64,000 nucleotides of DNA from a bacterium (GTDB lineage: Bacteria; Patescibacteriota; Minisyncoccia; Phycocordibacterales; SBAW01), in contig SBAW01000011.1 of the NCBI GenBank assembly GCA_005239955.1, positions 6,924 through 70,923 on the forward strand. Reading direction: 5' to 3'. Below the pieces are notes generated by a model. The model ran no database searches. It had not been told where the DNA came from and saw only the letters and a program-made list of their open reading frames with translations. Every line of letters begins with the position of its first letter. The first letter of the stretch is position 1. Below are positions 30,736 to 55,439 of this stretch, one piece after another. Position numbers and translations under genes: made by a program.

Positions 30736-31254
30736 ATGTACGCCGCAAATCCGCTTTCTACAATTGTCGCGACCCTCAAACAGGTGTGGGACATCGCCCC
30801 CTCGCAGTGGGGGGAGACGCGGTTTGTTTCAGAGTTCAGCGGCAGGTGGGGTGAGTTCTACACGCTTGAAGCAAGTTGGTACCAGTATTTCGCAGACAAA
30901 AAGAAGGGCCGACTTGTCCTCGAATACTACCTCCCGTTCTGTCTCATGCCGCGGAGCGATTCCGCGAAGATTGCACGCTTCATGCGGGTCATGAACGAAG
31001 GGGTGCGTCGCTACAAACTCATGACACTGGCTTTTCGGACGGCGCGCCGGCAATTCTGTTTTTCGCGAGAGCGTGAGACTGAGGCGCCTTATGTGGAAGG
31101 GCCAAGCGAAAGCGTGAAAGAGTCGCTGTACCACGAGATATGCTTTACGCAGCTCTCTTACCCCTTGTGGACGAGATTTCTCCGGGAGGAAGAACTTGTT
31201 GCGGCCTTCGTCGATTTCGCCTATATGGCGGCGGCAAGCGACTACAATATGTGA
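30736..31254 (+). CDS. hypothetical protein (172 aa), GC-rich insert between fusA and tuf
   Basis: ORF preceded by GGAGGAGG RBS. About 58% GC. No family recognised. Confidence 0.45.
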   Translation: MYAANPLSTIVATLKQVWDIAPSQWGETRFVSEFSGRWGEFYTLEASWYQYFADKKKGRLVLEYYLPFCLMPRSDSAKIARFMRVMNEGVRRYKLMTLAFRTARRQFCFSRERETEAPYVEGPSESVKESLYHEICFTQLSYPLWTRFLREEELVAAFVDFAYMAAASDYNM

Positions 31255-31263
31255 AGGAAGAAC

Positions 31264-31290
31264 CCGGCCGCTGCCAAGCGGCCGGGTCTT
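31264..31290. terminator. GC hairpin ACCCGGCCGC-TGCCAA-GCGGCCGGGT
   Basis: Inverted repeat right after the 30736..31254 ORF. Confidence 0.5.
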
Positions 31291-31383
31291 CGCGTTTGTT
31301 GACACGTCGCGGAAAGAGTGTAGAACAATGATTAGAGAATTGCGCGCAGAAACAGTTTTTGAAAGGGAAGGAACCCCGACCAT

Positions 31384-31768
31384 GACAGCCACTACAGTGC
31401 CGTTCGGCTTCGACTACCTCGCCGCTTTCGACGCGGCGAAGGACGCTTTGCGGCGAACGCTCGGTGACCTCGGCCCGCGCACCAGAGCGATCCTCAATGC
31501 CGGGGCTGGCGACTACCAGATGGTTTTCGCTGCGGCGGCCGAGGAATCGCCAGACACCATGGTCGCTTCGATCGAGGCGACCAATGCTGACGAACGTGCC
31601 GAGTGGGCGTACTGGGGAGCTCGTTTTCTTCGCCCCGGCCCGCTTCGCGACCGACTCCTCACCGTCATCGCCAGGTCCCCCAGTCCGATGGTGAAATGGT
31701 GGGCATTGACGACGATCGACGGCATCTCCCCCGAGATTGCGGCCCTGTTCCAGAAAGAGGCCCGCTGA
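31384..31768 (+). CDS. hypothetical protein (128 aa), GC-rich insert between fusA and tuf
   Basis: ORF MTATTVPFGFDYLAAFDAAKDALRR…. Ala/Arg-rich, no family recognised. Confidence 0.4.
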
Positions 31769-31777
31769 AAGGAATGA

Positions 31778-31803
31778 CCCGGCCGCACCCTGCGGCCGGG
31801 TCA
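31778..31803. terminator. GC hairpin ACCCGGCCGC-ACCCT-GCGGCCGGGT (near-copy of the 31264 hairpin)
   Basis: Same 10-bp stem as the 31264 hairpin. Directly after the ORF stop. Confidence 0.5.
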
Positions 31804-32005
31804 TGATACTTTTCGCCTTCATTCATTGACTGTTTTTAACCTTCGCAGTAGGATAACTGCTACGCAGAAATGCGTCGTTTTTATTCTGGGATAGTCCTCC
31901 CGAATAAAAACCATCTGTGCGAGCATCGACAGGGGGTGCACGCAAAATTATTTATAACGATTATAAAAAACGGAGACGTCCCTGGTCCGCTCCGGAAGAA
32001 TTATT

Positions 32006-33196
32006 ATGGCAACATTTGATCGCAGTAAGCCCCACGTCAACGTCGGCACTATTGGTCACGTCGACCACGGCAAGACGACGCTCACGGCAGCAATTCTTAA
32101 TGTGCTTAACCTCGCTGGTCAGGAGGTGAAGCTCAAAAAAGTCGACGAGATCGACAGCGCACCGGAAGAGAAGGCACGCGGTATTACGATTGCGCTCTCG
32201 CACAACGAATACTCAACAGCAAATCGTCACTACGCACACATTGACGCACCGGGACATGCGGACTACATCAAAAACATGATCACCGGTGCCGCACAGATGG
32301 ACGGCGCAATCCTCGTGGTCGCGGCAACTGACGGCGTCATGCCCCAGACCCGCGAGCACATTCTCCTCGCCAAGCAAGTTGGCGTTCCAAAAGTCATCGT
32401 CTTCCTCAACAAGGTAGACATGGTTGACGACAAAGACCTCGTGGACCTCGTTGAAGAGGAAGTCCGCGAACTCCTCACGAAGCAAGGCTACGACGGCAAA
32501 GAAGCCCCGGTTATTCGCGGCTCAGGGCTTAAGGCCCTTGAAGCAAAAGACGTCAACGATGAGTGGGCGAAGAAAGTCCTCGAGCTTGCCAAAGCACTCG
32601 ATGAATACATTCCGCTTCCGCAGCGCGAAACCGACAAGCCCTTCATCATGCCAATTGAAGACATCTTCTCGATTGAAGGTCGTGGCACTGTTGTGACCGG
32701 CCGTATTGAGCGCGGCAAGGTGAAAGTCGGTGAGGAAGTTGAAATTGTTGGCCTGAAGCCTACCGCAAAGACCACCATCACCGGTATCGAAATGTTCAAC
32801 AAGCAGCTTGACGAAGGCCTCGCTGGCGACAACGCAGGCATCCTTCTTCGCGGTACCAAGAAAGAAGACGTCACCCGCGGCCAAGTTATCGCAAAACCTG
32901 GCTCCGTCACTCCTCACACTGATTTTGAGTCGGAAGTCTACATCCTCAACAAAGACGAAGGCGGCCGTCACACGCCGTTCTTCACCGGCTACAAGCCGCA
33001 ATTCTACGTCCGCACCACCGACGTGACCGGCGAAGTAACCCTTCCTACGGGAACCGAGATGGTTATGCCGGGCGATACGATTACCTTCAAGGTAAAGCTC
33101 GTTGCTCCGGTTGCACTTGAAGAGAAGCAGCGCTTCGCGATCCGCGAGGGCGGCAAGACCGTTGGCGCGGGTGTGGTTACGAAAATTGTGGCGTAG
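32006..33196 (+). CDS. tuf: elongation factor Tu
   Basis: [22 protein letters not shown] motifs. 396 aa. Confidence 0.97.
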
Positions 33197-33230
33197 AATC
33201 TTGTGAGCGTAGCGAGTTAGATTCCTACGC

Positions 33231-33286
33231 CACCCTGTTAAATCCCGCCTTCAGCGGGTCGGCCAAAGGCCGAATTTAACAGGGTG
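33231..33286. promoter_or_regulatory. three-way-junction-like element: outer stem CACCCTGTTAAAT/ATTTAACAGGGTG enclosing hairpins CCCGC…GCGGG and CGGCC…GGCCG
   Basis: Nested inverted repeats between the tuf stop and the rpsJ start. Could be a terminator, attenuator or S10-leader-like element. Confidence 0.45.
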
Positions 33287-33320
33287 AGATTCCTCAGTCA
33301 CCTCGTTCCTTCGAAATCTC

Positions 33321-33707
33321 ATGGTCACTAAAGAAAAAACAAAGCCAGTAAAAAAGACTATCGCACCAAAGCGTAAAGCTGCGGTAGCGAAAGAAGAGCC
33401 AGTCCAGAAGCTGCGCATCAAAGTCCGTGCGTACGAGCACAAAATTCTCGACGCCTCGGTGCGCCAGATTATGGACACCGCGCTTCGCTATGACGCCACG
33501 ATTGTGGGGCCGGTGCCGCTTCCAACTGAAATCAAAAAATATACCGTCAACCGCTCGGCATTTATCTATAAAGATGCACGCGAGCAGTTCGAGATGCGCG
33601 TCCATAAACGTGTTATCGACATCGTAAATCCTGCCCCCAAGGTCATTGAAGCGCTGACCAATTTGTCACTGCCTTCTGGTGTCACTATCGACGTCAAGAT
33701 GATGTAG
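33321..33707 (+). CDS. rpsJ: 30S ribosomal protein S10 (with ~27-aa Lys-rich N-terminal extension)
   Basis: Core [16 protein letters not shown]…[10 protein letters not shown]…. Confidence 0.9.
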
Positions 33708-33734
33708 AAGTGGCAAGCAGCGGGAATGCGAAAA

Positions 33735-33763
33735 ACTGCCCATCATAAATGGGCAGTTTTTTG
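33735..33763 (+). terminator. rho-independent terminator ACTGCCCAT-CATAA-ATGGGCAGT + T6
   Basis: Perfect 9-bp stem and U-run 28 bp after the rpsJ stop, inside the S10 operon. Confidence 0.65.
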
Positions 33764-34002
33764 TTATGGAAATGAAATCCTGTGGAAATCGTTGAGAAAT
33801 GCCAATCTGAACCGAATCTAGATGCCATTGGGGGGCGATGGCAAAAGGACATCAAATCAGAGGACCTCCTTGCTTTTATTAATCCAATCCAGTAAGGTGT
33901 TTCCACGCTACGTTCCGCCGGAATACCGGAGAGGAACCAATGGCATGAATCCTCGAATTGAAGCGAGGACGCGCCATTGATGGCGCAATTTTCATTTAAA
34001 CC

Positions 34003-34614
34003 GTGAAGTTTATCCTCGGCACAAAGGAATACATGACGCAGATCTTCGATAAGGAAGGTCGTGTTCACGCAGCTACGGTCATTGCCGCAGGCCCGCTTGT
34101 CGTGACGCAGGTCAAATCGAAAGATAAGGACGGCTACGAGGCGGTCCAGGTTGGTTTTGGGGAGCGCAAACTCACGCGTATCAATAAAGCGCAGCAGGGA
34201 CACAATAAAGATCTCGGCAATTTCCGCTTCACACGAGAATTCCGCACCCTTCCCGCAAACACCGAGCGTGGCACAAAAATTGATGTTTCAGCATTTGCGC
34301 CAGGTGACGTGGTTACCGTCTCCTCAATTTCAAAAGGCAAGGGATTCCAAGGTGTGGTGAAGCGCCACAAATTTAAAGGCGATTCTCGCACGCACGGCCG
34401 CAAACATTCTGAGCGCGCCCCAGGATCAATTGGCGGCGGCGGACGTGCCGGTGGTCGCGTTATTAAAGGCATGCGCATGGCCGGCCGCATGGGTGGTGAG
34501 CGTGTGACAGTGAAGAATCTCAAAGTACTTCAGGTTGACTCGGCACAGCATCTTTTGGTAATCAAAGGAGCAATTCCTGGTCGCCAAGGAACGCTCGTCG
34601 AAGTTGTTGCATAA
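34003..34614 (+). CDS. rplC: 50S ribosomal protein L3
   Basis: MKFILGTKEYMTQIFDKEG… parallels MKGLIGRKVGMTRIF. Confidence 0.95.
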   Translation: MKFILGTKEYMTQIFDKEGRVHAATVIAAGPLVVTQVKSKDKDGYEAVQVGFGERKLTRINKAQQGHNKDLGNFRFTREFRTLPANTERGTKIDVSAFAPGDVVTVSSISKGKGFQGVVKRHKFKGDSRTHGRKHSERAPGSIGGGGRAGGRVIKGMRMAGRMGGERVTVKNLKVLQVDSAQHLLVIKGAIPGRQGTLVEVVA

Positions 34615-34635
34615 CGCGGTACGGAGTAACGAATT

Positions 34636-35298
34636 ATGGAAGCCAAAATTTACAACACAAAAGGTTCGGCGGTCGGGGAAGTGAAGCTTCCTGACTCGGT
34701 CTTTGGCGTGGCGTTTAAATCTGACGTCGTACATCAAGTGGTGATGGCCATTCGCGAAAATATGCGCCCGGCTGTGGCGCACACTAAAGACCGCGGTGAG
34801 GTTCGCGGTGGCGGCCGAAAGCCATGGCAGCAAAAAGGTACCGGTCGCGCACGCCACGGCTCATCTCGCTCCCCAATTTGGGTAGGCGGCGGTATCACCC
34901 ACGGGCCTCGAAGCGAAAAGCGCTATGCACACAAAGCAAATCGCTCCATGAAAGCGAAAGCATTGGCGATGGTGCTTTCACGAAAGATGAAAGACGGTGA
35001 GATGCTCTTTGTTGACGAACTCATCATTGGTACTCCGAAGACCAAAGACGCCAAAGCGGCACTCCTCGGCCTCGGAAAAATCAAAGGCTACGAGGGAGTT
35101 GCAACAAAGACACGTAATGCCACTCTCATTGCCGTACCGACGCGCACCCCAGCACTCGTTAAAAGTTTTCAGAATTTCGGCAACGTTGCGGTTGAAGAAG
35201 TCCGTAACCTCAACCCTCTTGACGTCCTCACTTACCGCCACGTGGTGGTTGTCGACCCCGAAAAATCAGTCGAGATGCTTGCGTCTCGCATGAATTAA
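34636..35298 (+). CDS. rplD: 50S ribosomal protein L4
   Basis: Position and motifs (…RGGGRKPWQQKGTGRARHGS…). Confidence 0.95.
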   Translation: MEAKIYNTKGSAVGEVKLPDSVFGVAFKSDVVHQVVMAIRENMRPAVAHTKDRGEVRGGGRKPWQQKGTGRARHGSSRSPIWVGGGITHGPRSEKRYAHKANRSMKAKALAMVLSRKMKDGEMLFVDELIIGTPKTKDAKAALLGLGKIKGYEGVATKTRNATLIAVPTRTPALVKSFQNFGNVAVEEVRNLNPLDVLTYRHVVVVDPEKSVEMLASRMN

Positions 35299-35303
35299 CT
35301 ACC

Positions 35304-35717
35304 ATGGCGCTTTTCTCAAGAAAAAAGAAAGAAACTACTGCTCAAGCTACTGTTGCTCCCGCTAAGGTAGCAAAGAAGGAAGAGAAGGTAGACACAAAGG
35401 AAGCAAAGATTTCCAAAGCCTTGGTGGTTCGCAAACGCGGACTCGACTCAGTGCTTCTCTCGCCGCGCATTACAGAGAAGGCAACGGGGGGAAACGCCAT
35501 TGGGTGCTATGTTTTCGATATTCCCCGCGGGGCTGGAAAGCGTGATGTCCGTGAAGCTGTTATCGCGCGCTATGGGGTGACTCCGCGACAAATCCGCACA
35601 ACGAAAGTAATGGCAAAGAATGTCCTGACACGCGGTTCCCGCAAATCGGGAGTTAAAGCAGGCGGAAAGAAAGCGTACGTGTACCTCAAAGCAGGCGACA
35701 AGATTGAGCTCGTATAA
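35304..35717 (+). CDS. rplW: 50S ribosomal protein L23 (N-terminal Ala/Lys-rich extension)
   Basis: Core …LLSPRITEKAT…YVFDI… after a ~45-aa extension. Confidence 0.9.
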   Translation: MALFSRKKKETTAQATVAPAKVAKKEEKVDTKEAKISKALVVRKRGLDSVLLSPRITEKATGGNAIGCYVFDIPRGAGKRDVREAVIARYGVTPRQIRTTKVMAKNVLTRGSRKSGVKAGGKKAYVYLKAGDKIELV

Positions 35718-35745
35718 ATCACAACGTCACAAGATCAGAAAAGAT

Positions 35746-36597
35746 ATGAAACACTTTAAACCATACACCAAGTCTCGCCGGCACATGTCGACCATTGAGT
35801 TCGGCAAGTATCTCTCCGGTGACCGACCGTTTAAGGCGCTCACTGTCGGCGGCAAGCGTGATGTCGGCCGCAATAACGCAGGCCGCATCACCATGCGCCA
35901 CAAAGGGGGTGGTCATAAGCGCCGCAACCGCCTTGTCGACTTTCTGTTTGACAAAAAGGATGTTCCCGCACGCGTTGAGACGATTGAGTACGACCCCAAT
36001 CGCTCTGCATTTATCGCGCTCGTCGTATATCGAGACGGTGAACGCCGCTACGTACTTGTCCCCTCAACTCTCAAAGTCGGTAGCACATTCCTCGTTTCGG
36101 AAAAAGCACCCGTGACTCCCGGCAACCGTCTCCCGCTTCGCAGTATTCCGGTTGGTACCTTCATCTACAACATTGAACTAAAGCCCGGTGGCGGTGCAAA
36201 AATCGGCCGCTCGGCAGGAAACTATGCTGAAGTCGTGGCGCACGATGCGGGGTACGTTGATATCAAACTTCCGTCAACCGAAATTCGAAAAGTTCCCGAG
36301 AATTGCTGGGCATCAGTTGGTACCGTTTCAAACGACGAGCACAAACTCGTCACGATTGGCAAAGCGGGGCGCTCTCGCTGGATGGGCATTCGCCCGACCG
36401 TTCGTGGTTCTGCCATGAACCCCGTTGACCACCCGTACGGCGGTGGAGAAGGGCGTCAAGGACGAGGAACGAGGCGCGCGAAGACCAAGTGGGGCAAGCC
36501 CTCCGGCAAAGGCCAGAAGACACGCCGCCGTAAAAAGTACTCCAACCGCCTTATTGTATCTCGCCGCTGGGTCGGCAAACGCAAACAAGCCCAATAG
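35746..36597 (+). CDS. rplB: 50S ribosomal protein L2
   Basis: MKHFKPYTKSRRHM…, GGGHKRR, …MNPVDHPYGGGEG…. Confidence 0.95.
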   Translation: MKHFKPYTKSRRHMSTIEFGKYLSGDRPFKALTVGGKRDVGRNNAGRITMRHKGGGHKRRNRLVDFLFDKKDVPARVETIEYDPNRSAFIALVVYRDGERRYVLVPSTLKVGSTFLVSEKAPVTPGNRLPLRSIPVGTFIYNIELKPGGGAKIGRSAGNYAEVVAHDAGYVDIKLPSTEIRKVPENCWASVGTVSNDEHKLVTIGKAGRSRWMGIRPTVRGSAMNPVDHPYGGGEGRQGRGTRRAKTKWGKPSGKGQKTRRRKKYSNRLIVSRRWVGKRKQAQ

Positions 36598-36615
36598 ACT
36601 TTCGCTCCCGCCTTT

Positions 36616-37345
36616 ATGTGCTCAACCCGGGTTGAGCACATTTAGTGTATGCTGAGAGCGTGACAAAACTTCGCAGTGTAGAGTCGGGAGAGTATTACCA
36701 CCTCTTCAATCGTGGAGCTTTGCGTGGGAATATTTTTCGAGAAAAAAACGATTGGTTGCGTTTTCTTTTTCTTGTTTTGTATAGCCAGTCACCTGTTTCG
36801 TTTAAGAATGTGAAGCGAGTTATTCAACCTACCGCTACCGATGAAGGCTTTGCAGTTCCTCTTGAACAGCAAAGTGAGATTATTGCAAATCGTTTCGTTG
36901 GGCTTACCGCGTTTTGTTTTATGCCAAACCATTTTCATCTCCTTGTGCGACAGATTGAGGACCATGGTATCGCACGGTACATGCAGCGGGTAATTAAAGG
37001 ATACACAGAATATTTCAACACTAAGTACGAGACATCAGGTCATTTGTTCCAAGGCCGATATAAAAGTACGCATGTCTCCGATAACCGTCAGTTACTCTAT
37101 CTCTCTGCGTACATCCATCGAAATTCTCGCGAGCTTCGAAACTGGACAGGAAAGGAAGAACACTACCCTTACTCTTCGTTGCAGGATTATGTTAATAAAA
37201 ATCGTTGGGGAAGCGTCCTTGAAACGGACCTTATTTCTAATCAATTCGACCAATCAGAATCATTAAGTTATCGGGAATTTGTTCGAACCAGCACGGCAAA
37301 AGACTTTAAACGGGAAAATGTGCTCAACCCGGGTTGAGCACATTT
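36616..37345 (+). mobile_element. IS200/IS605-family or RAYT-like minimal element: Y1 (HUH) transposase gene bounded by identical 28-bp palindromes ATGTGCTCAACCCGGGTTGAGCACATTT (36616-36643, 37318-37345)
   Basis: Identical hairpin-forming repeats flank a single ORF with HUH and catalytic-Tyr motifs. Located between rplB and rpsS. Confidence 0.75.
36645..37337 (+). CDS. tnpA: IS200-like / REP-associated tyrosine (Y1, HUH) transposase
   Basis: [14 protein letters not shown]…DWLRFLFL (Y1_Tnp N-term), …[11 protein letters not shown] (HUH), …[10 protein letters not shown] (catalytic Tyr region). GTG start. Stop codon lies inside the right-end hairpin. Confidence 0.75.
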
Positions 37346-37426
37346 GACACTCGAACAAAGGTTGACAGAGGGAGTAGTGGGAGAGTAGGATGCGGGCACG
37401 CTCGGAATCGGGCGTTTTCATTTCTC

Positions 37427-37786
37427 ATGTCACGATCGCTTAAAAAAGGACCCTACGTCGACCAAAAGTTGATGAAGAAAATTACCGGCAAACGGCCGGC
37501 TTCTACCCCTGTTATTAATACCTGGGCGCGCCGGAGCCAAATTGCTCCTGAAATGGTTGGGTTTAAATTTGGGGTTTATAACGGTAAGAGCCATATTGAG
37601 GTCCTCGTTTCAGAAGACATGGTGGGGCATAGGCTCGGGGAATTTTCTCCAACTAAAAAATTCCAGCGCCACGGCGGTAAGATGCAGAAGGAACTCGAGC
37701 AAAAAAAGAAAGAGGCCGAAATTGCAGCCGCACAAGCGGCAAAAGCTGCTTCGAGTGAAGGCGCTGCGAAACCGCCGGCAAAATAA
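37427..37786 (+). CDS. rpsS: 30S ribosomal protein S19 (C-terminal Lys/Ala-rich extension)
   Basis: [19 protein letters not shown]…[10 protein letters not shown]…. Confidence 0.95.
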
Positions 37787-37801
37787 TCATTTCTGTCATT
37801 T

Positions 37802-38137
37802 TTGAATATGAAAGCCTCTCTCTCACACTATCGACAATCGCCGCGCAAGGTCCGTTTGGTAACTGACCTTGTCAAAGGCAAGAGTGTTCGAGAGGCGCTT
37901 GCCATTCTTTCGGTGATGCCCAAGCGAGCGGTACTGCCGCTTGAACGCCTCATTAGGTCGGCAGTTGCCAATAGCGGCGTCTCAAAAGAAGAGGGTGATC
38001 GCCTCATCATCAAGAGCATTACGGTCAATAAAGGGCTTGTTTTCAAGCGTTTCAATCCGGTTTCGCGCGGTCGCGCACACCCAATCAAGAAACGCACCAG
38101 TCACGTGGACATCATGCTTTCCAAGCTTTCAAAATAG
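37802..38137 (+). CDS. rplV: 50S ribosomal protein L22
   Basis: …SPRKVRLVTDLVKGKSVREALAIL…. Confidence 0.95.
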   Translation: MNMKASLSHYRQSPRKVRLVTDLVKGKSVREALAILSVMPKRAVLPLERLIRSAVANSGVSKEEGDRLIIKSITVNKGLVFKRFNPVSRGRAHPIKKRTSHVDIMLSKLSK

Positions 38138-38807
38138 TATGTCGCATACCGTACATCCATACGCACATAGGCTAGGTATTCTCCGCGATTGGAAAAGTCG
38201 TTGGTTTGCGCGTGACGCAAAGTTCCGCGAGTTCCTCAAGACCGACGTCCTCCTTCGCCGCTATCTCCAGATGCGACTTCGTGGCATGTACGTCAGCGGG
38301 ATTGAATTTGAACGAAACGAAAAGAATCTCCGCGTCATCATCAAGACGTCTCGCCCGGGCGTCATTATTGGTCGCTCAGGTGAAGGCTCCACACGCCTCA
38401 AGAACGATATTGCAGAATTTTTGCGCCGCAAGGCAAAAATGAAAGTTCCTGAAATTCGCCTCGATATTGAAGAGGTGCGCTCTCCGGAGAGTAATGCCGC
38501 AATCATCGGTCACATGGTGGTGGAGGCTCTCGAGAAACGTCTGCCGTTTCGTCGCGTTCTTAAACAAACGGTTGAGAAGGCAATGGCCAATCGCGACGTG
38601 AAAGGAGTGCGCATTGCACTTGCGGGGCGCCTGGGGGGCGCTGACATGGCTCGCAAAGAGGAACTAAAGAAAGGACGCATTCCACTCCAAACCTTCCGCG
38701 CCGATATCGATTTTGCACGCGTTGAGGCCCGACTGCCCTTGGGGATCATTGGCATCAAAGTATGGGTCTACCGCGGAGACGTCTTTGAAGACGAAAAGAA
38801 AAAATAG
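38138..38807 (+). CDS. rpsC: 30S ribosomal protein S3
   Basis: KH domain …GVIIGRSGEGSTRL…, C-terminal domain. Confidence 0.95.
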
Positions 38808-38810
38808 CGT

Positions 38811-39242
38811 ATGTCGATGCTTTTCCCAAAAAAAGTAAAGTTCCGCAAATCCTTCACGTTCCGCCGGAACCCCAATAAAGTGCGCATCGCAACGCGCGGC
38901 ATTGAGCTGTCGTTTGGCTCATTTGGACTGAAGGCCATGAGTGAAGCGCGCGTGCGAAGCAACCAGCTTGAATCGGCACGTAAAGTTATTTCTCGCACGC
39001 TCGGGAAAACCGGCAAAGTGTGGATTCGTGTGTTTCCGGACAAACCATTCACCAAGAAACCGCCCGAAGTGAAAATGGGAAAGGGGAAAGGGGATCCCGT
39101 TGGCTACGAAGTGGAAGTACTTCCGGGCCGCATCATGTTTGAAATTGATGGTATTGAAGAGGTAATGGCACGCGAGGCGCTTCGCAAGGCAGGCACCAAA
39201 CTGCCGCTTAAGACCAAAGTCGTCGCGCGCAACGTACACTAA
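38811..39242 (+). CDS. rplP: 50S ribosomal protein L16
   Basis: …KFRKSF…RGIELSFGSFGLKA…. Confidence 0.95.
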   Translation: MSMLFPKKVKFRKSFTFRRNPNKVRIATRGIELSFGSFGLKAMSEARVRSNQLESARKVISRTLGKTGKVWIRVFPDKPFTKKPPEVKMGKGKGDPVGYEVEVLPGRIMFEIDGIEEVMAREALRKAGTKLPLKTKVVARNVH

Positions 39243-39243
39243 T

Positions 39244-39441
39244 ATGGCCTCAGAATACAAGGACAAAACAGTTTCTGACCTCACGGGGCTTCTTGCAGAG
39301 AAGCGCAAGGCCTTCGCGAATTTCCGTTTCGCGATTGCCGGAAGCAAAACCCGCAACACGAAAGAGGGCAAGGGACTTCGCCGCGAAATTGCGCGCATTC
39401 AAACAGAGCTTGCAAAGCGAGAGGGTAATAAGGCACGATAG
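39244..39441 (+). CDS. rpmC: 50S ribosomal protein L29
   Basis: 65 aa, position between L16 and S17. Confidence 0.9.
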   Translation: MASEYKDKTVSDLTGLLAEKRKAFANFRFAIAGSKTRNTKEGKGLRREIARIQTELAKREGNKAR

Positions 39442-39450
39442 GAAACTTCT

Positions 39451-39699
39451 ATGGCAGACGCAACCACAAAACGAAAAACACTCACCGGAACGGTCGTATC
39501 GACCAAGATGAAAGACACCGTGGTTGTTAAAGTTGACCGCTACGTGAAGCACTCCAAGTACGAGAAATTTATGAGGCGAAGCAAGCGTTTTCTCGCGCAT
39601 GACCCTGGCAATACCGCAAAAGAAGGCGAGAAAGTAACATTGCGCTCGATACGCCCCAAGTCGAAGAATAAAGTCTTCGAGATCGTTCGTACGGCATAA
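39451..39699 (+). CDS. rpsQ: 30S ribosomal protein S17
   Basis: …RKTLTGTVVSTKMKDTVVVKVDR…. Confidence 0.95.
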   Translation: MADATTKRKTLTGTVVSTKMKDTVVVKVDRYVKHSKYEKFMRRSKRFLAHDPGNTAKEGEKVTLRSIRPKSKNKVFEIVRTA

Positions 39700-39708
39700 A
39701 CCACCTCT

Positions 39709-40080
39709 ATGATTCAACCACGCACCATTGTAAAGATTTGTGACAACACCGGCGGCAAAATTGGCCGCATCTTCAAAGTGCTTGGCGGTTCAAAGAAGCG
39801 CTACGCGGAAATCGGCGACATTGTCGTCCTTTCCGTACAAACCGCAGAGCCCAGGAAGCAGGTCAAGAAAAAGGATGTCCTCCACGCGATTGTGGTACGC
39901 ACCAGGAAGCCTCTCCGTCGCAAAGATGGTTCCTATGTACGTTTTGATGAGAACGCCGTGGTGATTATCGACAAAGATAAGATGGAGCCTCGTGGCGCCC
40001 GTGTGTTCGGCCCTATTCCTCGCGAAATCGGCGAGCGCGGCTACCAGAAGATTATTTCGCTTGCCCCCGAAGTCGTTTAA
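39709..40080 (+). CDS. rplN: 50S ribosomal protein L14
   Basis: MIQPRTIVKICDNTGGK…. Confidence 0.95.
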   Translation: MIQPRTIVKICDNTGGKIGRIFKVLGGSKKRYAEIGDIVVLSVQTAEPRKQVKKKDVLHAIVVRTRKPLRRKDGSYVRFDENAVVIIDKDKMEPRGARVFGPIPREIGERGYQKIISLAPEVV

Positions 40081-40089
40081 ATTACTCTC

Positions 40090-40311
40090 ATGCATGTAAA
40101 GAAGGGAGACATGGTGGTCGTTACCACCGGCAAAGATAAGGGAAAAAGCGGAAAAATAATTCGCGCGTTCCCGCGTAAAGACCTCGTCCTTGTTGAGGGC
40201 ATCAATCTTCGCAAGAAGCATGAGCGCCCCCGCAAAACGAACCAGAAAGGACAGATTGTGGAGAAGGTAATGCCGATTCACGTCTCAAACGTTCGCAAGA
40301 AGAAAGAATAG
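40090..40311 (+). CDS. rplX: 50S ribosomal protein L24
   Basis: [23 protein letters not shown]… (KOW). Confidence 0.95.
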
Positions 40312-40324
40312 ACCGAAAATAGAT

Positions 40325-40864
40325 ATGGAACTCATTCAAGACAAACAAAAAAAAGCATTCGAAGCTCTCAAAGATCGCTTCCACTACCGCAACCCTATGC
40401 AAACCCCGCGCCTCCTCAAAGCGGTGGTGGCTGTCGGTGTGGGGTCCCTTCGCGATAAAAAGAAAATTGAACTCGTGGAAGACCGTCTTGCCAAGATTAC
40501 GGGGCAAAAAGCAGCGCCGCGCGGAGCCAAGAAAGCAATCGCAACATTTAAAACGCGTCAGGGAGACATTGTGGGGCTTCAGGTCACTCTTCGCGGCAAG
40601 CGCATGGAAGATTTCGTAAACAAACTCCTTCATATCGCACTGCCGCGCACTAAAGACTTCAAAGGGATAACTCCCGATATTGTGGACGTGGTTGGTAATG
40701 CAACGGTGGGCATCAAGGAGCACATCGTTTTCCCCGAAACCTCTGATGAAGAGCTTAAAGACGTCTTTGGCATGGGGGTCACGATTGTAACGACCGCCAA
40801 AAAACCAGAGGAAGCAAAAGCGTATCTCGAATACCTCGGGTTCCCCTTCAAAAAGAAGCAATAA
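40325..40864 (+). CDS. rplE: 50S ribosomal protein L5
   Basis: …NPMQTPRLLKAVVAVGVG…. Confidence 0.95.
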   Translation: MELIQDKQKKAFEALKDRFHYRNPMQTPRLLKAVVAVGVGSLRDKKKIELVEDRLAKITGQKAAPRGAKKAIATFKTRQGDIVGLQVTLRGKRMEDFVNKLLHIALPRTKDFKGITPDIVDVVGNATVGIKEHIVFPETSDEELKDVFGMGVTIVTTAKKPEEAKAYLEYLGFPFKKKQ

Positions 40865-40868
40865 TCGC

Positions 40869-40896
40869 AAAAAACGGCCCCAGGCCGTTTTTTGTT
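40869..40896 (+). terminator. terminator hairpin AACGGCC-CCA-GGCCGTT + T6 immediately after rplE
   Basis: 7-bp GC stem flanked by A5 and T6. Lies inside the spc operon before rpsZ. Confidence 0.55.
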
Positions 40897-41070
40897 TGAC
40901 AAGGGAGAAGCGAAAAAGTAGTATGAGCGCCAAGCACAGCGAGTGCTTTTTTGTTTGAACTGCGTAGTGTGGGTACGGGTATCTCGCCCTCCCGAAGCGT
41001 GCAGCTCAGACAAGTTCGCGGCAGGTAAGAATAGAACCCGAGGGAAACTTCCGGCGGGTTCACATCCATC

Positions 41071-41256
41071 ATGGCAAAGACATCTGTCATAGTTCGCAGT
41101 AAACGCAAACCCAAATTTAAATCGCGGGTTGTTCGCCGCTGCTTTAAGTGTGGGAGGAAGCGTAGCTACATGCGCGACTTTGATATGTGCCGCATTTGTT
41201 TCCGTGAACTCGCAAACGAAGGCATGATACCGGGTATTAAGAAATCCTCATGGTAA
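41071..41256 (+). CDS. rpsZ: 30S ribosomal protein S14 type Z (zinc-binding)
   Basis: 61 aa, CxxC…CxxC ([23 protein letters not shown]). Confidence 0.95.
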
Positions 41257-41642
41257 GCGATACGATTGGAGATCTCATAAACCACCTTAAAACTGCGAAC
41301 CGCGCGGGGAAGCAGATGGTTTCCGTACCCTACTCCGGCCATCGTCTTGCCGTGGTGAAACTTCTCGCGAAAGAAAAATATATCGCGAGCGCCACGAAGC
41401 GTGGCAAAAAGGTGCGCAAATACATTGACGTTGAACTCGCCTACGATGGTGAGTCGCCCCGCATCAATGGTGCGCGTCGCATTTCACGCCCCTCACGCCG
41501 TCTCTACCGCTCTGCGCGAGAGCTTCGACCAGCTGCCGGAGCTCATCGCATTACAGTACTCTCAACACCAAAAGGCATTCTCACTGACCGCGACGCCAAA
41601 AAGCAAAGTGTCGGCGGCGAAGTTATGTTTGAAATGTGGTAA
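41250..41642 (+). CDS. rpsH: 30S ribosomal protein S8
   Basis: [16 protein letters not shown]…. Confidence 0.95.
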
Positions 41643-41644
41643 CC

Positions 41645-42178
41645 ATGAGTCGTATCGCAAAAAAACCTATTGTAGTCCCTCAAGGCGTAACGGTGACCGT
41701 TGCGGGAGGAAATGTTTCGGTGAAAGGACCGCAAGGAGAACTCTCGCGCCCCCTTCACCCCGATATGGCTGTCGCGGTTGCCGAGGGAGCCGTTTCGGTA
41801 ACGCCTCATGTTGAGACGAAGCGCACCAAAGCACTCTGGGGAACGACAGCCGCTCATATCAAAAATATGCTGGAGGGTGTTGTGAAGCCCTATGAAAAGC
41901 GCCTCCTCATCGAGGGCGTGGGGTATCGCTGGGAAGTGGCGGGCACGAAGATGAATCTTTCGCTCGGTTTCTCTCACCCCGTCTCAGTTGAAATTCCGAA
42001 AGGACTTAAGGTAACGATTGAGAAGGGAGTTTTGGTTATTGCAGGCATCGACAAAGATGTGGTCGGACAATTTGCCGCAAACATTCGCGCCCTCAAAAAG
42101 CCGGAGCCGTATAAGGGCAAGGGTATTCGCTACAGCGACGAGGTCATTCGCCGCAAGCAAGGTAAGAAGACAGCCTAG
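41645..42178 (+). CDS. rplF: 50S ribosomal protein L6
   Basis: MSRIAKKPIVVPQGVTV…. Confidence 0.95.
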   Translation: MSRIAKKPIVVPQGVTVTVAGGNVSVKGPQGELSRPLHPDMAVAVAEGAVSVTPHVETKRTKALWGTTAAHIKNMLEGVVKPYEKRLLIEGVGYRWEVAGTKMNLSLGFSHPVSVEIPKGLKVTIEKGVLVIAGIDKDVVGQFAANIRALKKPEPYKGKGIRYSDEVIRRKQGKKTA

Positions 42179-42192
42179 CTGTCAAAATTGAT

Positions 42193-42549
42193 ATGGCACA
42201 AACAATTTCACAAAAAAAGAAGGCCTCGAGGGAGCGACGACACAAGAAAATTCGCACGCGTGTCCGTGGTACAGCCGAAAAACCTCGTTTGTCAGTATTT
42301 AAATCCAATCGTCGCATCGTCGCACAGCTCATTGACGATGAACGGGGAGCAACGATTGTCGCCACCCACGTGGCAGGGGCGAAAGGCAAAAATAAAACGC
42401 AGGCAGCCAAGGATGCAGGGATGGAGCTTGCGAAACAAGCACTTGCGAAGGGCATCAAGGTGGCAGCGTTTGATCGGGGCGGCTTTCGCTACACCGGTCG
42501 CATTGCCGCATTTGCCGATGGTGCGCGAGAAGGAGGGCTCAAAGTATAA
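42193..42549 (+). CDS. rplR: 50S ribosomal protein L18
   Basis: …RKKIRTRVRGTAEKPRLSVFKSNRRIVAQLIDD…. Confidence 0.95.
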   Translation: MAQTISQKKKASRERRHKKIRTRVRGTAEKPRLSVFKSNRRIVAQLIDDERGATIVATHVAGAKGKNKTQAAKDAGMELAKQALAKGIKVAAFDRGGFRYTGRIAAFADGAREGGLKV

Positions 42550-42555
42550 ACGTAT

Positions 42556-43125
42556 ATGAACGACACAGCACAAAACACACCAAAGCCGGTAGAGACGAAA
42601 GAGGCTCCTCGTACTCGTTCAGACGGGCGTGGAGGAGAGCGCCGTGGTGGACGCCCCGAGCGCGGCCGCCGTACGCCTCGCCCTGAGCGCGCGAGAAGCG
42701 AGTACGATCAAAAGATGATTTCTATTCGTCGCGTTGCCCGCGTGGTTGCCGGCGGCCGCCGCTTCAGTTTCTCTGTCGCGATGGTGCTTGGTGACCGCAA
42801 GGGGAAGGTAGGGGTAGGCTTAGGGAAAGGGGGCGACACCGCGCTCGCAATTGAAAAAGCAACTCGCGATGCAAAGAAAAATATGATCAAAGTGCGTCTC
42901 ACCAAAGACAGCTCCATCGCACATTCGGTCTACGCAAAATACGCCGCTTCGGAACTTTCCATGCTCCCGGTCAGGGGTCGCGGACTTGTTGCGGGAAGCT
43001 CGGTGCGCACTGTCCTCGATCTGGCTGGCATCACCAACATCTCAGCGAAACTCCTTACGCGCAGCAAGAACCCCGTCAATAATGCGCACGCTACCATCAA
43101 GGCACTTCGCGGCCTTAAAGCGTAA
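42556..43125 (+). CDS. rpsE: 30S ribosomal protein S5 (Arg/Gly/Glu-rich N-terminal extension)
   Basis: Core …ISIRRVARVVAGGRRFSFSVAMVLGD… Followed directly by rplO; no rpmD (L30) in between. Confidence 0.95.
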   Translation: MNDTAQNTPKPVETKEAPRTRSDGRGGERRGGRPERGRRTPRPERARSEYDQKMISIRRVARVVAGGRRFSFSVAMVLGDRKGKVGVGLGKGGDTALAIEKATRDAKKNMIKVRLTKDSSIAHSVYAKYAASELSMLPVRGRGLVAGSSVRTVLDLAGITNISAKLLTRSKNPVNNAHATIKALRGLKA

Positions 43126-43137
43126 TTAATTACTTCC

Positions 43138-43608
43138 ATGCAGCTTCACGAACTCAAACGAACACACCCTCTCACCAAAAAGGTCCGTGTAGGCCGTGGT
43201 GGGAAGCGCGGGAAGACCTCCGGACGAGGCGGCAAGGGGCAGAGCGCGCGTGCCGGTAATAAAATTCGTCCCGCTATCCGCGACGTCATTAAGAAACTTC
43301 CGAAACTGCGAGGCTACCGTTTCAAGAGTTTCCGCTCTAAACCAGTAGTGGTCAATATTGCGGCACTGGAGAAGAAATACACGGCAGGAGAAGTCGTAAG
43401 CCCGCAGACGCTCGCAGCGAAAGGAATCATTGATATGCGAAAAGGGAGCACGTTCTCGGTGAAACTCCTCGGGGATGGGGAACTCACGAAGAAACTAAGC
43501 GTAGAAGGATGTTTTGTTTCTGGAAGCGCTCTGCAAAAAATAACCGCAGCCGGTGGAACCATAACCCCTCTCAATGGATCGGGTAGTAGAATTTCGGCTC
43601 GCACATAG
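43138..43608 (+). CDS. rplO: 50S ribosomal protein L15
   Basis: MQLHELKRTHPLTKKVRVGRGGKRGKTSGRGGKGQ…. Confidence 0.95.
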   Translation: MQLHELKRTHPLTKKVRVGRGGKRGKTSGRGGKGQSARAGNKIRPAIRDVIKKLPKLRGYRFKSFRSKPVVVNIAALEKKYTAGEVVSPQTLAAKGIIDMRKGSTFSVKLLGDGELTKKLSVEGCFVSGSALQKITAAGGTITPLNGSGSRISART

Positions 43609-43704
43609 TGCTGTTTAGTGTGAATCTGACCGAAGTCACCATCATGAACTTACACCACGAAACCGAATCAAGTAGAATCAACAAGCCGAAATTTCACTAA
43701 CCCG

Positions 43705-55406: not shown

Positions 55407-55437
55407 AAAAGAACTCCGCGAGCGGAGTTCTTTTGTT
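55407..55437. terminator. bidirectional terminator AAAAGAACTCCGC-GA-GCGGAGTTCTTTT
   Basis: 9-bp stem flanked by A- and T-runs. Confidence 0.65.
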
Positions 55438-55439
55438 TC

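What the first reader, a model, noticed from the sequence alone, without database searches (positions are those of the whole stretch)
36600..37430. IS200/RAYT-like Y1 transposase with identical 28-bp palindromes inserted inside the S10 operon between rplB and rpsS
A single 230-aa ORF carries the Y1/HUH transposase hallmarks: YHLFNRG…, [15 protein letters not shown]. It is bracketed by two exact copies of the hairpin-forming palindrome ATGTGCTCAACCCGGGTTGAGCACATTT. The right copy even encodes the protein's last residues and stop. The element sits in the rplB-rpsS intergenic space of the most conserved ribosomal operon. Insertions are rare there because read-through transcription of rpsS-rplV-rpsC… must be maintained. 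A tnpA-only cassette with identical GC hairpins at both ends resembles REP/RAYT domestication more than a classical IS200 with distinct left and right ends.
Basis: partly seen in the sequence, partly recalled or inferred. Interest (0 to 1): 0.7.

Follow-up and report, generated by a model that had tools for sequence, protein, structure and literature searches.

The report
Hairpin-flanked RAYT-like gene upstream of rpsS
A single-copy gene for a hairpin-cutting DNA enzyme, flanked by two identical DNA hairpins, sits between ribosomal genes rplB and rpsS, and this is a long-standing, mostly inherited resident of a natural operon boundary in one group of tiny (CPR) bacteria, not a fresh jump.

Summary
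A 225-230 aa ORF (36645/36660-37337) hits Pfam Y1_Tnp. It is bracketed by two exact copies of a 28-nt hairpin palindrome found nowhere else in the 64 kb, between rplB and rpsS.

The protein is RAYT-type (class 2 TnpA-Y1), not IS200-type. Its motifs are NHFH, FQ, YIHRN(P/S) and a YPYSS tail. Its best structural match is E. coli TnpA-REP bound to a REP hairpin.

The context changes the story. All 16 close homologues with flanks recovered (48-72% identity) lie in the same rplB-rpsS gap, on either strand, with a hairpin at or within about 10 nt of the rpsS -35 where checked. They form one clade. Its tree is largely congruent with the ribosomal-protein tree (Mantel r 0.46, p 0.004), with one apparent cassette replacement.

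In this lineage the gap looks like an operon boundary. rplB usually ends in a terminator, and rpsS has its own consensus promoter and leader hairpin. The gap ranges from 70 to about 6000 bp with unrelated cargo.

So this is a resident REPtron/TIRtron-like cassette, not an operon-breaking IS200. No REP-like dispersal was seen. Many distant relatives carry a third, in-frame copy of their hairpin inside the gene.

The parts
35746..36597 (+). rplB (ribosomal protein L2), upstream neighbour. Its stop codon lies 18 nt before the left hairpin.
   Evidence: Pfam Ribosomal_L2_N and Ribosomal_L2_C, E 5e-33 and 2e-51; sequence.
36616..36643 (.). Left hairpin (H1): the 28-nt repeat copy. The perfect palindrome spans 36616-36641, with 13-nt arms. 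It is the probable binding or cleavage site of the Y1 protein, and it may also serve as a terminator or insulator after rplB.
   Evidence: Exact repeat, 0 expected by chance. ssDNA fold of the 50-nt region -10.9 kcal/mol, z -5.4, MFE stem 11 bp with a 4-nt loop. Relatives carry equivalent hairpins, with compensatory changes between WIN and L002.
36645..37337 (+). Class-2 (RAYT-type) Y1 HUH nuclease/transposase gene. The maximal ORF is 230 aa; the probable start is GTG 36660 (225 aa). Key motifs are HUH at H96-F-H98, the catalytic Tyr at Y156 (YIHRNS), and the SS tail motif at S177-S178.
   Evidence: Pfam Y1_Tnp. Family alignment A1. AlphaFold pLDDT 90. Best PDB fold match 4ER8 TnpA-REP. Motif table of PMC6006769.
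37316..37345 (.). Right hairpin (H3): a perfect 30-nt palindrome that contains the second 28-nt repeat copy (37318-37345). It overlaps the last codons and the stop codon of the Y1 gene. A first TTGAC overlaps its 3' end.
   Evidence: ssDNA fold of the 50-nt region -13.2 kcal/mol, z -6.1.
37362..37391 (+). Sigma-70-type promoter of rpsS: TTGACA, 18 nt, TAGGAT. It is a host feature, not part of the cassette, and it explains why the cassette is tolerated here.
   Evidence: Promoter scan, 10 of 12 matches. The same -35/-10 arrangement lies upstream of rpsS in relatives with and without the Y1 gene.
37398..37425 (+). rpsS leader: a small GC hairpin (37398-37415) followed by a T-run, starting about 7 nt after the -10. 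It is conserved in structure but not in sequence across relatives.
   Evidence: Terminator-like hit. RNA fold -11.5 kcal/mol. Present in 33 of 41 loci under strict criteria, against 17% of shuffles. No Rfam family matches.
37427..37786 (+). rpsS (ribosomal protein S19), downstream neighbour.
   Evidence: Pfam Ribosomal_S19, E 1e-31.

Best explanation
Positions 36616-37345 are a REPtron/TIRtron-like cassette. It holds one gene for a class-2 (RAYT-type, subclass-2.1-like) Y1 HUH single-strand DNA nuclease/transposase, bracketed by its own cognate hairpins.

It is not a recent IS200 hop into an operon. It belongs to a large, monophyletic clade of Patescibacteria (Paceibacteria-like) genes that always sit in the rplB-rpsS gap. 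In every locus where this was examined, a cassette hairpin lies at or within about 10 nt of the rpsS -35 box, whichever strand the gene is on.

In this lineage the S10 cluster appears to be split at this point. rplB usually ends with a terminator, rpsS has its own promoter and a 5' leader hairpin, and the space between is a variable cargo slot. The cassette therefore probably interrupts no transcription unit.

The clade is mostly inherited vertically. The gene orientation has flipped rarely, and occasionally the whole cassette (gene plus hairpins) has been replaced at the same site.

Shown here:
- the domain, fold and catalytic motifs;
- the hairpins, and that they vary with the gene across loci;
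- the fidelity to this site;
- the conserved promoter and leader consensus;
- partial co-phylogeny with the host;
- a strain-level homology break exactly at a hairpin foot.

Inferred, not shown:
- The protein binds and cuts the hairpins on single-stranded DNA. This rests on analogy with E. coli TnpA-REP/REP and IS608.
- The palindromes mediate inversion, deletion and cassette exchange.
- In this window H1 and H3 also act as terminators or insulators for rplB and for the Y1 gene.
For: Protein identity:
- Pfam Y1_Tnp hit.
- The motifs NHFH, FQ, YIHRN(P/S) and YPYSS, and the length of 225-230 aa, match subclass 2.1 in the table of PMC6006769.
- The AlphaFold model (pLDDT 90) best matches 4ER8, TnpA-REP bound to a REP hairpin (E 2e-5), ahead of the ISDra2 and IS608 TnpA structures.

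The hairpins belong to the gene:
- At least 33 of about 80 family loci, in unrelated genomic contexts, carry matching locus-specific hairpins on both sides.
- Hairpin type follows the protein clade.
- WIN and L002 differ by compensatory changes in the stem.
- Y1-free gaps carry only ordinary terminators.

Site fidelity:
- All 16 close homologues with flanks recovered lie in the rplB-rpsS gap. These are L002, L003, L004, L007, L008, L009, L012, L014, L017, L166, L169, L172, L175, L177, L178 and L179 (L017 has only the rpsS side on its contig).
- Seven of these (P0012, P0025, P0029, P0088, P0072, P0028, P0041) were looked up as a prediction test, and all seven were in the gap.
- They form one clade.

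Vertical descent:
- The Y1 and S19+L22+S3 distance matrices correlate (Mantel r 0.46, p 0.004), and most subclades are shared between the two trees.
- Gene orientation is conserved within host subclades.

Operon boundary:
- A TTGAC -35, a 17-18 nt spacer, a -10 box and then a 5' hairpin with a T-run lie upstream of rpsS in relatives with and without the Y1 gene.
- Gap length ranges from 70 to 5983 bp, with unrelated cargo including DAGK, a histidine kinase, DUF3298 and PKD/CARDB proteins.

The hairpin as a recombination boundary:
- L166 and L167 are 96-98.7% identical strains carrying the same Y1 gene.
- They lose homology exactly at the 5' foot of H1. Between the rplB stop and H1 they hold unrelated genes.

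Single copy:
- No second copy of the gene or the hairpin exists in the 64 kb.
Against: - The host distribution is patchy. In an L2-based sample of 41 relatives' gaps, none carried a clade-A Y1 gene and one carried a distant Y1. Vertical descent therefore requires many losses, or else transfers.
- The Y1 gene is lower in GC than its surroundings in 11 of 13 clade-A loci. This could reflect foreign origin.
- L003 has r-proteins about 95% identical to L009 but a Y1 only 59% identical. This shows at least one replacement.
- Two unrelated Y1 lineages occupy the gap: clade A and the L105/L136 lineage. This is compatible with repeated insertion.
- No activity, transcript or cleavage data exist.
- Genome-wide copy number of the hairpin in this organism could not be checked.
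- The subclass-2.1 assignment rests on motifs, not on the authors' HMMs. That subclass was described as lacking REP-like hairpins.
Confidence: 0.7

Rival explanations
1. A still-mobile, site-specific element. The hairpin-gene-hairpin unit transposes or is transferred horizontally, and repeatedly targets the junction just upstream of the rpsS promoter (a terminator hairpin, or the TTGAC motif). On this reading the shared position reflects target choice rather than descent.
For: - The gene occurs on both strands, with a hairpin always close to the rpsS TTGAC.
- A second, unrelated Y1 lineage (L105/L136) also lies in the gap, and a distant Y1 lies just upstream of rpsJ in L051.
- The host distribution is patchy.
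- Y1 genes are lower in GC than their surroundings.
- L003 and L009 show a cassette-level replacement.
- Y1 plus the spacer to rpsS show 0 differences in 799 nt between L166 and L167, against about 0.6% in the adjacent genes.
Against: - Orientation is conserved within host subclades, and the trees are largely congruent.
- There is one copy per locus, and no other copy in 64 kb.
- TTGAC is too common a motif to explain a unique site.
- The L105/L136 Y1 sits next to rplB rather than next to the rpsS promoter, so the gap looks permissive rather than precisely targeted.
- Several opposite-strand members have lost the second hairpin. That would disable a two-ended element.
- No close relatives occur on plasmids or phages.
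Confidence: 0.17
2. A recent insertion of an ordinary IS200/IS605-type insertion sequence into the S10 operon of this one organism.
For: - The ORF hits Pfam Y1_Tnp, the 'Transposase IS200 like' family.
- The unit is about 730 bp, close to the length of IS200 as recalled from memory.
- Its GC content is low compared with the flanks.
Against: - The Y motif is YIHRN(P/S), which is class 2, not the Y---Q of IS200. The protein is 225 aa with a C-terminal tail, not a core-only protein of about 150 aa.
- The best fold match is TnpA-REP.
- The two ends are identical, there is no tnpB, and there is no second copy in 64 kb.
- Homologues only 48-72% identical occupy the same site in 16 other organisms.
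Confidence: 0.05
3. The palindromes are host regulatory hairpins (terminators or RNA-processing sites) of the rplB-rpsS spacer, and the ORF merely landed between them.
For: - Y1-free relatives have a terminator hairpin directly before the rpsS -35, in the position that H3 occupies here.
- H1 is followed by TTT and lies just after the rplB stop.
Against: - Y1-free gaps have A-tract/GC-stem/T-tract terminators, not TGTGC...GCACA palindromes.
- Family members far from any ribosomal gene are flanked by the same kind of hairpin, with sequences that track the protein clade.
- In L003 and L009 rplB keeps its own classical terminator as well as the two cassette hairpins.
Confidence: 0.03

Closest known systems
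TnpA-Y1 subclass 2.1 of Quentin et al. 2018 (PMC6006769), equal to Bertels Group 1 RAYTs (PMC5581495) and largely to the TIRYT/TIRtron elements of Di Nocera et al. 2013 (PMC3733652)
   Same: - HuH motif NH[YF]H (here NHFH).
- FQ in place of WQ/WE.
- Y motif Y[IV]H.NP (here YIHRNP in the family, YIHRNS in this window).
- A proximal C-terminal tail with conserved SS (here YPYSS).
- Length about 238 aa (here 225-230).
- Low copy number.
- The gene is flanked by inverted repeats. Some TIRs were described as partly or wholly self-complementary.
   Different: - Subclass 2.1 was reported to have no REP-like secondary structures next to the gene, and its TIRs share GGGGWSAS. Here the flanks are strong perfect hairpins, typically TGTGC...GCACA, with no GGGGWSAS.
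- No HTH or DnaA_C tail was detected by Pfam.
- The hosts are Patescibacteria, which were not listed among the taxa in the parts of those surveys I read.
- One clade has a fixed chromosomal address, between rplB and rpsS.
- Many relatives carry a third, in-frame hairpin inside the gene.
E. coli TnpA-REP (RAYT) and its REPtron (PDB 4ER8; subclass 2.2)
   Same: - It is the best structural match (Foldseek E 2e-5, TM 0.67 on the target).
- It is a single-copy gene bracketed by its cognate hairpins.
- It has the class-2 Y---NP motif.
- It is largely vertically inherited (PMC5581495).
   Different: - Sequence similarity is weak: profile E 0.04, and NCBIfam REP_Tyr_transpos 33.5 bits against a cutoff of 80.
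- The hairpins lack the 5' GT[AG]G foot.
- No dispersed REP/REPIN population was seen in 64 kb.
- This protein has an extra C-terminal tail of about 70 aa.
IS200 (IS200/IS605 family, subclass 1.1)
   Same: - HUH/Y1 catalytic core.
- A tnpA-only unit of about 0.7 kb, with a hairpin just upstream of the gene. From memory of IS200 biology, this hairpin could shield the gene from read-through transcription.
   Different: - The Y motif is not Y---Q.
- The protein is about 75 aa longer.
- The ends are identical palindromes rather than distinct left and right ends.
- It is single-copy, syntenic across species, and co-diverges with its host.

Membership tests
HUH/Y1 superfamily (Pfam PF01797 Y1_Tnp) | Profile match above the curated threshold | tested here: met
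   E 7e-10, 39.5 bits against a cutoff of 23.
HUH/Y1 superfamily (Pfam PF01797 Y1_Tnp) | HUH motif on a beta strand, and a single catalytic Tyr on the following long helix | tested here: met
   H96-F-H98 and Y156 are invariant in 36 family members. In the model, the strand at 96-103 and the helix at 147-163 hold these residues. The fold matches the TnpA structures.
IS200/IS605 insertion sequence (TnpA-Y1 subclass 1.1) | Y---Q motif and a core-only protein of about 150 aa | tested here: not met
   The motif is YIHRN(S/P), and the protein is 225-230 aa with a conserved C-terminal tail.
IS200/IS605 insertion sequence (TnpA-Y1 subclass 1.1) | Several near-identical copies per genome; distinct subterminal left-end and right-end hairpins; often a tnpB partner | tested here: not met
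   There is one copy in 64 kb, the flanking hairpins are identical, and there is no tnpB in the gap. Whole-genome copy number could not be tested.
RAYT / REPtron (class 2 TnpA-REP) | Class-2 Y motif Y---NP | tested here: met
   The family consensus is YIHRNP. This window has YIHRNS, with P161 replaced by S. Motif definition from PMC6006769.
RAYT / REPtron (class 2 TnpA-REP) | Gene flanked by its cognate hairpin repeats | tested here: met
   Exact 28-nt copies lie on both sides here. Matching flanking hairpins occur in at least 33 family loci, 14 as direct repeats, 16 as inverted repeats and 3 as perfect palindromes.
RAYT / REPtron (class 2 TnpA-REP) | Hairpins carry a 5' GT[AG]G foot and are dispersed in many copies through the genome (REP/REPIN population) | tested here: not met
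   The foot reads ATGTGC, with no GT[AG]G. There are no further copies in 64 kb even with 3 mismatches. In relatives, only a few loci show extra nearby copies: L015, L016, L080 and L085. The whole genome of this organism was not available.
RAYT / REPtron (class 2 TnpA-REP) | NCBIfam equivalog NF047646 (REP_Tyr_transpos) at or above its cutoff | tested here: not met
   33.5 bits against a cutoff of 80.
TnpA-Y1 subclass 2.1 / TIRYT (TIRtron) | Motif set NH[YF]H, FQ, Y[IV]H.NP and an SS tail motif; median length about 238 aa | tested here: met
   NHFH, FQ, YIHRNP and YPYSS are present, and the length is 225-230 aa (one search compared with Table 1 of PMC6006769). This was tested by motif comparison only, because the authors' HMMs were not available.
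TnpA-Y1 subclass 2.1 / TIRYT (TIRtron) | Flanking terminal inverted repeats, many with GGGGWSAS; no REP-like hairpins; a C-terminal HTH or DnaA_C-like domain | tested here: inconclusive
   The two palindromes are inverted repeats of each other, but they are strong hairpins and lack GGGGWSAS. Pfam finds no HTH or DnaA_C domain even at E<=1. The model has three short C-terminal helices, which were not analysed further.

The most novel reading that the evidence does not exclude
The clade-A Y1 protein may be a domesticated hairpin nuclease with a host-level role tied to its fixed address. In every clade-A locus examined for this, its cognate hairpin lies within about 10 nt of the rpsS -35 box, whichever strand the gene is on.

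Two roles are conceivable. It could modulate the rpsS-operon promoter or terminator junction by binding the hairpin. Or it could act as an integron-like recombinase that swaps cargo genes in the rplB-rpsS slot at the hairpin foot, as the L166/L167 junction hints.

A related unexplained feature is the third, in-frame copy of the locus-specific hairpin inside the gene in many relatives. It could be a self-cleavage or autoregulatory site.
Probability: 0.15. Interest if true: 0.8.

Novelty: new variant of a known kind. Interest (0 to 1): 0.55.

Why it matters
What RAYT-type Y1 proteins do for their hosts is still not established. [quoted passage not shown]

This work identifies a large Patescibacteria clade of such genes with three useful properties:
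- a fixed, easily recognised chromosomal address, just upstream of the rpsS promoter;
- a minimal system of one gene and one or two perfect hairpins;
- natural variants in both orientations, with one or two hairpins, and with different neighbouring cargo.

That makes hairpin recognition, cleavage and any effect on the adjacent promoter directly testable in vitro or in a surrogate host.

It also shows that the most conserved bacterial gene cluster appears to be split at rplB|rpsS in this lineage and is used as a variable gene slot. This matters for operon models and for marker-gene synteny assumptions in CPR genomes. The conserved rpsS leader hairpin is a candidate new cis-regulatory element.

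Tried and rejected
- Rfam at E<=1 over 31000-45000: no family matches the hairpins or the rpsS leader.
- NCBIfam: only REP_Tyr_transpos, far below its cutoff.
- Pfam at E<=1: no second domain, neither HTH nor DnaA_C.
- tblastn against plasmids and phages: only distant partial matches at 26-36% identity, so there is no evidence for a plasmid or phage vehicle.
- Extra copies of the 26-mer in the window: none with up to 3 mismatches. Among the 174 fetched loci, the 16-nt core occurs only in L001 (the same organism) and L002.
- Genome-wide REP test for this organism: not possible.
- A clean empty site in a very close relative: none found. The nearest Y1-free hosts (L109, L115) carry other cargo, so the exact insertion boundaries cannot be set.
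- A promoter for the Y1 gene itself: only -10-like TATAnT boxes between H1 and the start codon in several loci, by eye. No convincing -35 box, so this was left open.
- The idea that same-strand members keep two hairpins and opposite-strand members keep one: mostly true, but L177 (opposite strand) keeps both, so it is not a rule.
- TTGAC as a specific target sequence: rejected as too common. The L105/L136 Y1 also sits at the rplB end of the gap.
- Literature searches for a Y1 gene or insertion hot spot at rplB-rpsS in CPR bacteria: nothing relevant.
Full report
**1. What is there**

The window carries the usual str/S10/spc gene order: tuf, rpsJ, rplC, rplD, rplW, rplB, then an extra ORF, then rpsS, rplV, rpsC, rplP and onward.
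- The extra ORF is 36645-37337 on the + strand, 230 aa as a maximal ORF.
- It hits Pfam Y1_Tnp at 39.5 bits against a cutoff of 23.
- The 28-mer ATGTGCTCAACCCGGGTTGAGCACATTT occurs exactly at 36616-36643 and 37318-37345. It occurs nowhere else in 64 kb, even with three mismatches, and 0 copies are expected by chance.
- The right copy is part of a perfect 30-nt palindrome that encodes the last residues and the stop codon.
- Both copies fold as strong hairpins on single-stranded DNA, with z-scores of -5.4 and -6.1.

- The likely start is GTG 36660. MTKLR... then matches the family N-terminus.
- The catalytic tyrosine is Y156 in SAYIHRNS, not the Y of GRYKS. This follows the published class-2 motif Y---NP and the predicted helix at 147-163.

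**2. What kind of Y1 protein**

A search of about 5.8 billion proteins gave 1538 relatives. The few named ones are from Patescibacteria, Paceibacterota or Kaiserbacteria. An alignment of 36 members (A1) shows these invariant or near-invariant features:
- N95-H96-F-H98;
- G132-x-x-F135-Q;
- S154-A-Y156-I-H158-R-N-P;
- Y-P-[YW]-S177-S178;
- N186-R-W-G.

Against the classification of Quentin et al. 2018 (PMC6006769) this is class 2 (TnpA-REP/RAYT type). Its motif set and length match subclass 2.1, which is Bertels Group 1 and the TIRYTs of Di Nocera et al.. It does not match IS200 (subclass 1.1: Y---Q, about 150 aa).

The AlphaFold model is confident (pLDDT 90, pTM 0.87). Its best PDB match is 4ER8, E. 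coli TnpA-REP bound to a REP hairpin (E 2e-5), ahead of the ISDra2, IS608 and IS200 transposases. By sequence alone the links are weak:
- profile against PDB gave E 0.006 for ISDra2 and 0.04 for 4ER8;
- NCBIfam REP_Tyr_transpos scored 33.5 bits against a cutoff of 80.

I therefore file it as RAYT-like and subclass-2.1-like, not as an equivalog of the E. coli RAYT.

**3. The hairpins belong to the gene**

I fetched 80 family loci from species-representative genomes, and more by exact protein look-up.
- At least 33 loci have matching hairpins on both sides of the gene. The sequence is locus-specific but the design is shared, typically TGTnnnnnnn-loop-nnnnnnnACA.
- WIN and its closest relative L002 (72% identity) differ in the stem by compensatory changes: GTGCTCAACC...GGTTGAGCAC against GTTCTCAACC...GGTTGAGAAC.
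- Hairpin types follow the protein clades.
- Where the loop is asymmetric, the two copies are direct repeats in 14 loci and inverted repeats in 16. The palindromes therefore flip freely over evolutionary time.
- rplB-rpsS gaps without a Y1 gene carry ordinary A-tract/GC-stem/T-tract terminators and no hairpins of this type. The one exception is an orphan doublet in L157.

**4. The position is conserved**

This was the main surprise.
- The first three homologues I looked up (P0002, P0008, P0007; 59-72% identity) were all between rplB and rpsS.
- Among the genome loci, L007, L008, L009, L012, L014 and L017 were there too.
- In a neighbour-joining tree of the family, all gap residents except one distant pair form a single clade, which I call clade A.
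- I then used this as a prediction. P0012, P0025, P0029, P0088, P0072, P0028 and P0041 (52-62% identity) were looked up, and all seven lie in the gap.

In total 17 distinct loci, counting the window, share the address (L017 has only the rpsS side on its contig).
- Six have the gene on the operon strand: WIN, L002, L003, L009, L166 and L175.
- Eleven have it on the opposite strand.

Where sequences were examined, a cassette hairpin lies within about 10 nt of the -35 box of the rpsS promoter. This is H3 in same-strand loci and H1 in opposite-strand loci. Any other cargo lies between rplB and the cassette.

More distant family members are scattered in unrelated contexts.

**5. Why the site tolerates it**

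An L2-based sample of metagenome loci gave 41 rplB-rpsS gaps from relatives.
- Their length ranges from 70 to 3893 bp in that sample, and up to 5983 bp in L003.
- The short gaps consist of three parts in order: a terminator after rplB; a TTGAC(T/A) -35 with a 17-nt spacer and a TAnnAT -10; and, about 7 nt later, a small GC hairpin plus a T-run before the rpsS start.
- The window has the same layout. TTGACA lies at 37362, followed by an 18-nt spacer and TAGGAT ending at 37391. The hairpin is at 37398-37415, followed by TTTCATTTCT.
- With strict criteria the leader hairpin is present in 33 of 41 loci, against 17% of shuffles. The stems differ between loci (AGCTC, CCCGC, GCGCG, CCGCC), so it is the structure that is conserved.
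- The longer gaps hold unrelated genes: a diacylglycerol kinase, a histidine kinase, a DUF3298 protein, PKD/CARDB surface proteins and unknowns.

So in this lineage rplB|rpsS appears to be an operon boundary and a variable gene slot. These promoter and terminator assignments are consensus matches conserved across loci; no transcript data exist.

**6. Descent or repeated insertion?**

For 16 clade-A loci, the Y1 and S19+L22+S3 distance matrices correlate (Mantel r 0.46, p 0.004).
- Most subclades are shared between the two trees: L008/L012/L014/L017, L004/L007/L169, L009/L175, WIN/L166, and L177 basal.
- Gene orientation is uniform within host subclades.

This favours long residence with vertical inheritance and rare inversions. 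There are also signs of exchange.
- L003 has r-proteins about 95% identical to L009, but its Y1 is only 59% identical. L003's hairpin resembles that of the L004 group, so the whole cassette appears to have been replaced.
- The host distribution is patchy. WIN and L002 sit among Y1-free relatives in the L2+S19 tree, and 0 of 41 unbiased gaps carry clade A.
- Y1 GC is below the locus GC in 11 of 13 loci.
- A second, unrelated Y1 lineage (L105/L136) occupies the rplB end of the gap, and another distant member lies just upstream of rpsJ.

I therefore give 0.7 to the resident, mostly vertical cassette and 0.17 to a site-specific element that is still mobile.

**7. A hint of activity at the hairpin foot**

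P0012 is encoded by identical DNA in strains L166 and L167.
- These strains are 96.1% identical to the left of the gap and 98.65% identical to the right.
- Between the rplB stop codon and H1 they carry unrelated sequences: a 182-aa ORF in one and a 135-aa ORF in the other, with different terminators.
- Homology resumes exactly at the first base of H1.

This is what one would expect if the hairpin foot is a recombination or cleavage point. It is a single case.

**8. Mechanism, and which steps are shown**

Shown:
- a conserved HUH/Y1 enzyme with an intact catalytic set;
- cognate hairpins that vary with the gene;
- one copy in 64 kb;
- a fixed address next to a conserved consensus promoter.

Inferred by analogy with TnpA-REP/REP (4ER8) and IS608:
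- the protein recognises the hairpin on single-stranded DNA and cuts at its foot.

Inferred from the sequence patterns:
- recombination between the two palindromes, which are at once direct and inverted repeats, accounts for the inversions, the deletions that leave orphan hairpins, and the cassette or cargo swaps.

Also inferred:
- In this window H1 lies 18 nt after the rplB stop and is followed by TTT, and H3 overlaps the Y1 stop codon. They may serve as terminators or insulators.
- In the RNA fold, the sequence just upstream of GTG 36660 (GAGAGC) pairs with 36603-36608 around H1. This could sequester the ribosome-binding site in read-through transcripts. IS200 has a comparable arrangement, recalled from memory rather than tested.

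**9. Comparison and novelty**

The kind of element is known: RAYT/REPtron and TIRYT/TIRtron. What differs is as follows.
- A subclass-2.1-like protein has strong REP-like flanking hairpins, whereas that subclass was described as lacking them.
- The hosts are Patescibacteria.
- A large clade has a fixed address in the ribosomal gene cluster.
- In at least 22 more distant relatives, a third copy of the locus-specific hairpin lies in frame inside the gene at about codon 50, and covaries with the flanking copies. Clade A lacks this internal copy.

[quoted passage not shown] I found no paper describing any of this for CPR bacteria. Hence my verdict is a new variant of a known kind, of moderate interest.

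Noticed in passing
window 37362-37425; also L086-L165 upstream of rpsS: A conserved rpsS promoter (TTGAC, 17-18 nt spacer, TAnnAT) is followed at the transcript 5' end by a small GC hairpin plus a U-run. The stems differ between loci (AGCTC, CCCGC, GCGCG, CCGCC). No Rfam family matches. It may be an unrecognised ribosomal-protein leader or attenuator in Paceibacteria.
   Followed up: partly
L011 4750, L013 797, L016 6156, L021 3423, L022 5973, L023 6156, L028 6174, L032 6143, L035 4968, L038 6143, L042 3740, L044 6175, L049 1218, L055 1711 and others: In at least 22 family members outside clade A, a third copy of the locus-specific flanking hairpin lies in frame inside the Y1 gene at about codon 45-60. 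It covaries with the flanking copies and dictates the local peptide (for example FVKHSVFN or FVQSRALD). Its function is unknown.
   Followed up: partly
L086-L165, L003, L009, L175 (rplB-rpsS gaps): The rplB-rpsS spacer of these Patescibacteria is a variable gene slot of 70-5983 bp. Its unrelated cargo includes a diacylglycerol kinase, a histidine kinase, a DUF3298 protein, large PKD/CARDB proteins and many unknowns.
   Followed up: partly
L166 3272-3961 against L167 3382-3961: Two strains, 96-98.7% identical and carrying an identical Y1 gene, hold unrelated cargo between the rplB stop and the upstream hairpin. Homology resumes at the first base of the hairpin. Y1 plus the spacer to rpsS show 0 differences in 799 nt, whereas the adjacent S19, L22 and S3 genes show 9 differences in 1473 nt.
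   Followed up: yes
L157, rplB-rpsS gap (positions about 96-160 of the gap): An orphan pair of hairpins (CAGCCACAGGTCCGACCTGTGGCTG and AGCCACAGGTCGGACCTGTGGCT), 42 nt apart with inverted loops, lies in a gap without a Y1 gene. It resembles a REPIN or the scar left by a deleted cassette.
   Followed up: no
L015, L016, L080, L085, L041, L060, L066: A few family loci have additional copies of their hairpin up to several kb from the gene. Some are adjacent doublets (also seen in L051, L071 and L083). This hints at limited REP-like spread in some genomes.
   Followed up: no
L001 (Logan contig of SRR6943130), equal to window 36616-37650: An independent assembly of the same organism starts exactly at the first base of the left hairpin. 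This could reflect population heterogeneity at that junction, or an assembly effect of the palindrome.
   Followed up: no
L105 and L136 (Y1 next to the rplB terminator); L051 3221-3823 (Y1 upstream of rpsJ): Distant Y1 lineages (33-44% identity to the window ORF) independently occupy boundaries of ribosomal-protein transcription units. Each has its own AAGGTCnGACCTT-type hairpins.
   Followed up: partly
window 37427-37786: S19 is 119 aa. The Pfam S19 domain covers residues 3-82, and a Lys/Ala/Glu-rich C-terminal extension follows ([32 protein letters not shown]).
   Followed up: no
window 1200-2200: This is the only other stretch of the window with GC as low as the Y1 gene (about 42-43.6%). 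It lies inside the 770-aa ORF at 113-2425.
   Followed up: no
window 55408-55461 and 55584-55637: A 54-nt direct repeat (78% identity) occurs twice, 176 nt apart. Each copy starts with a terminator-like hairpin followed by GTGGAGATGGGCGGAATCGA. It was not examined.
   Followed up: no
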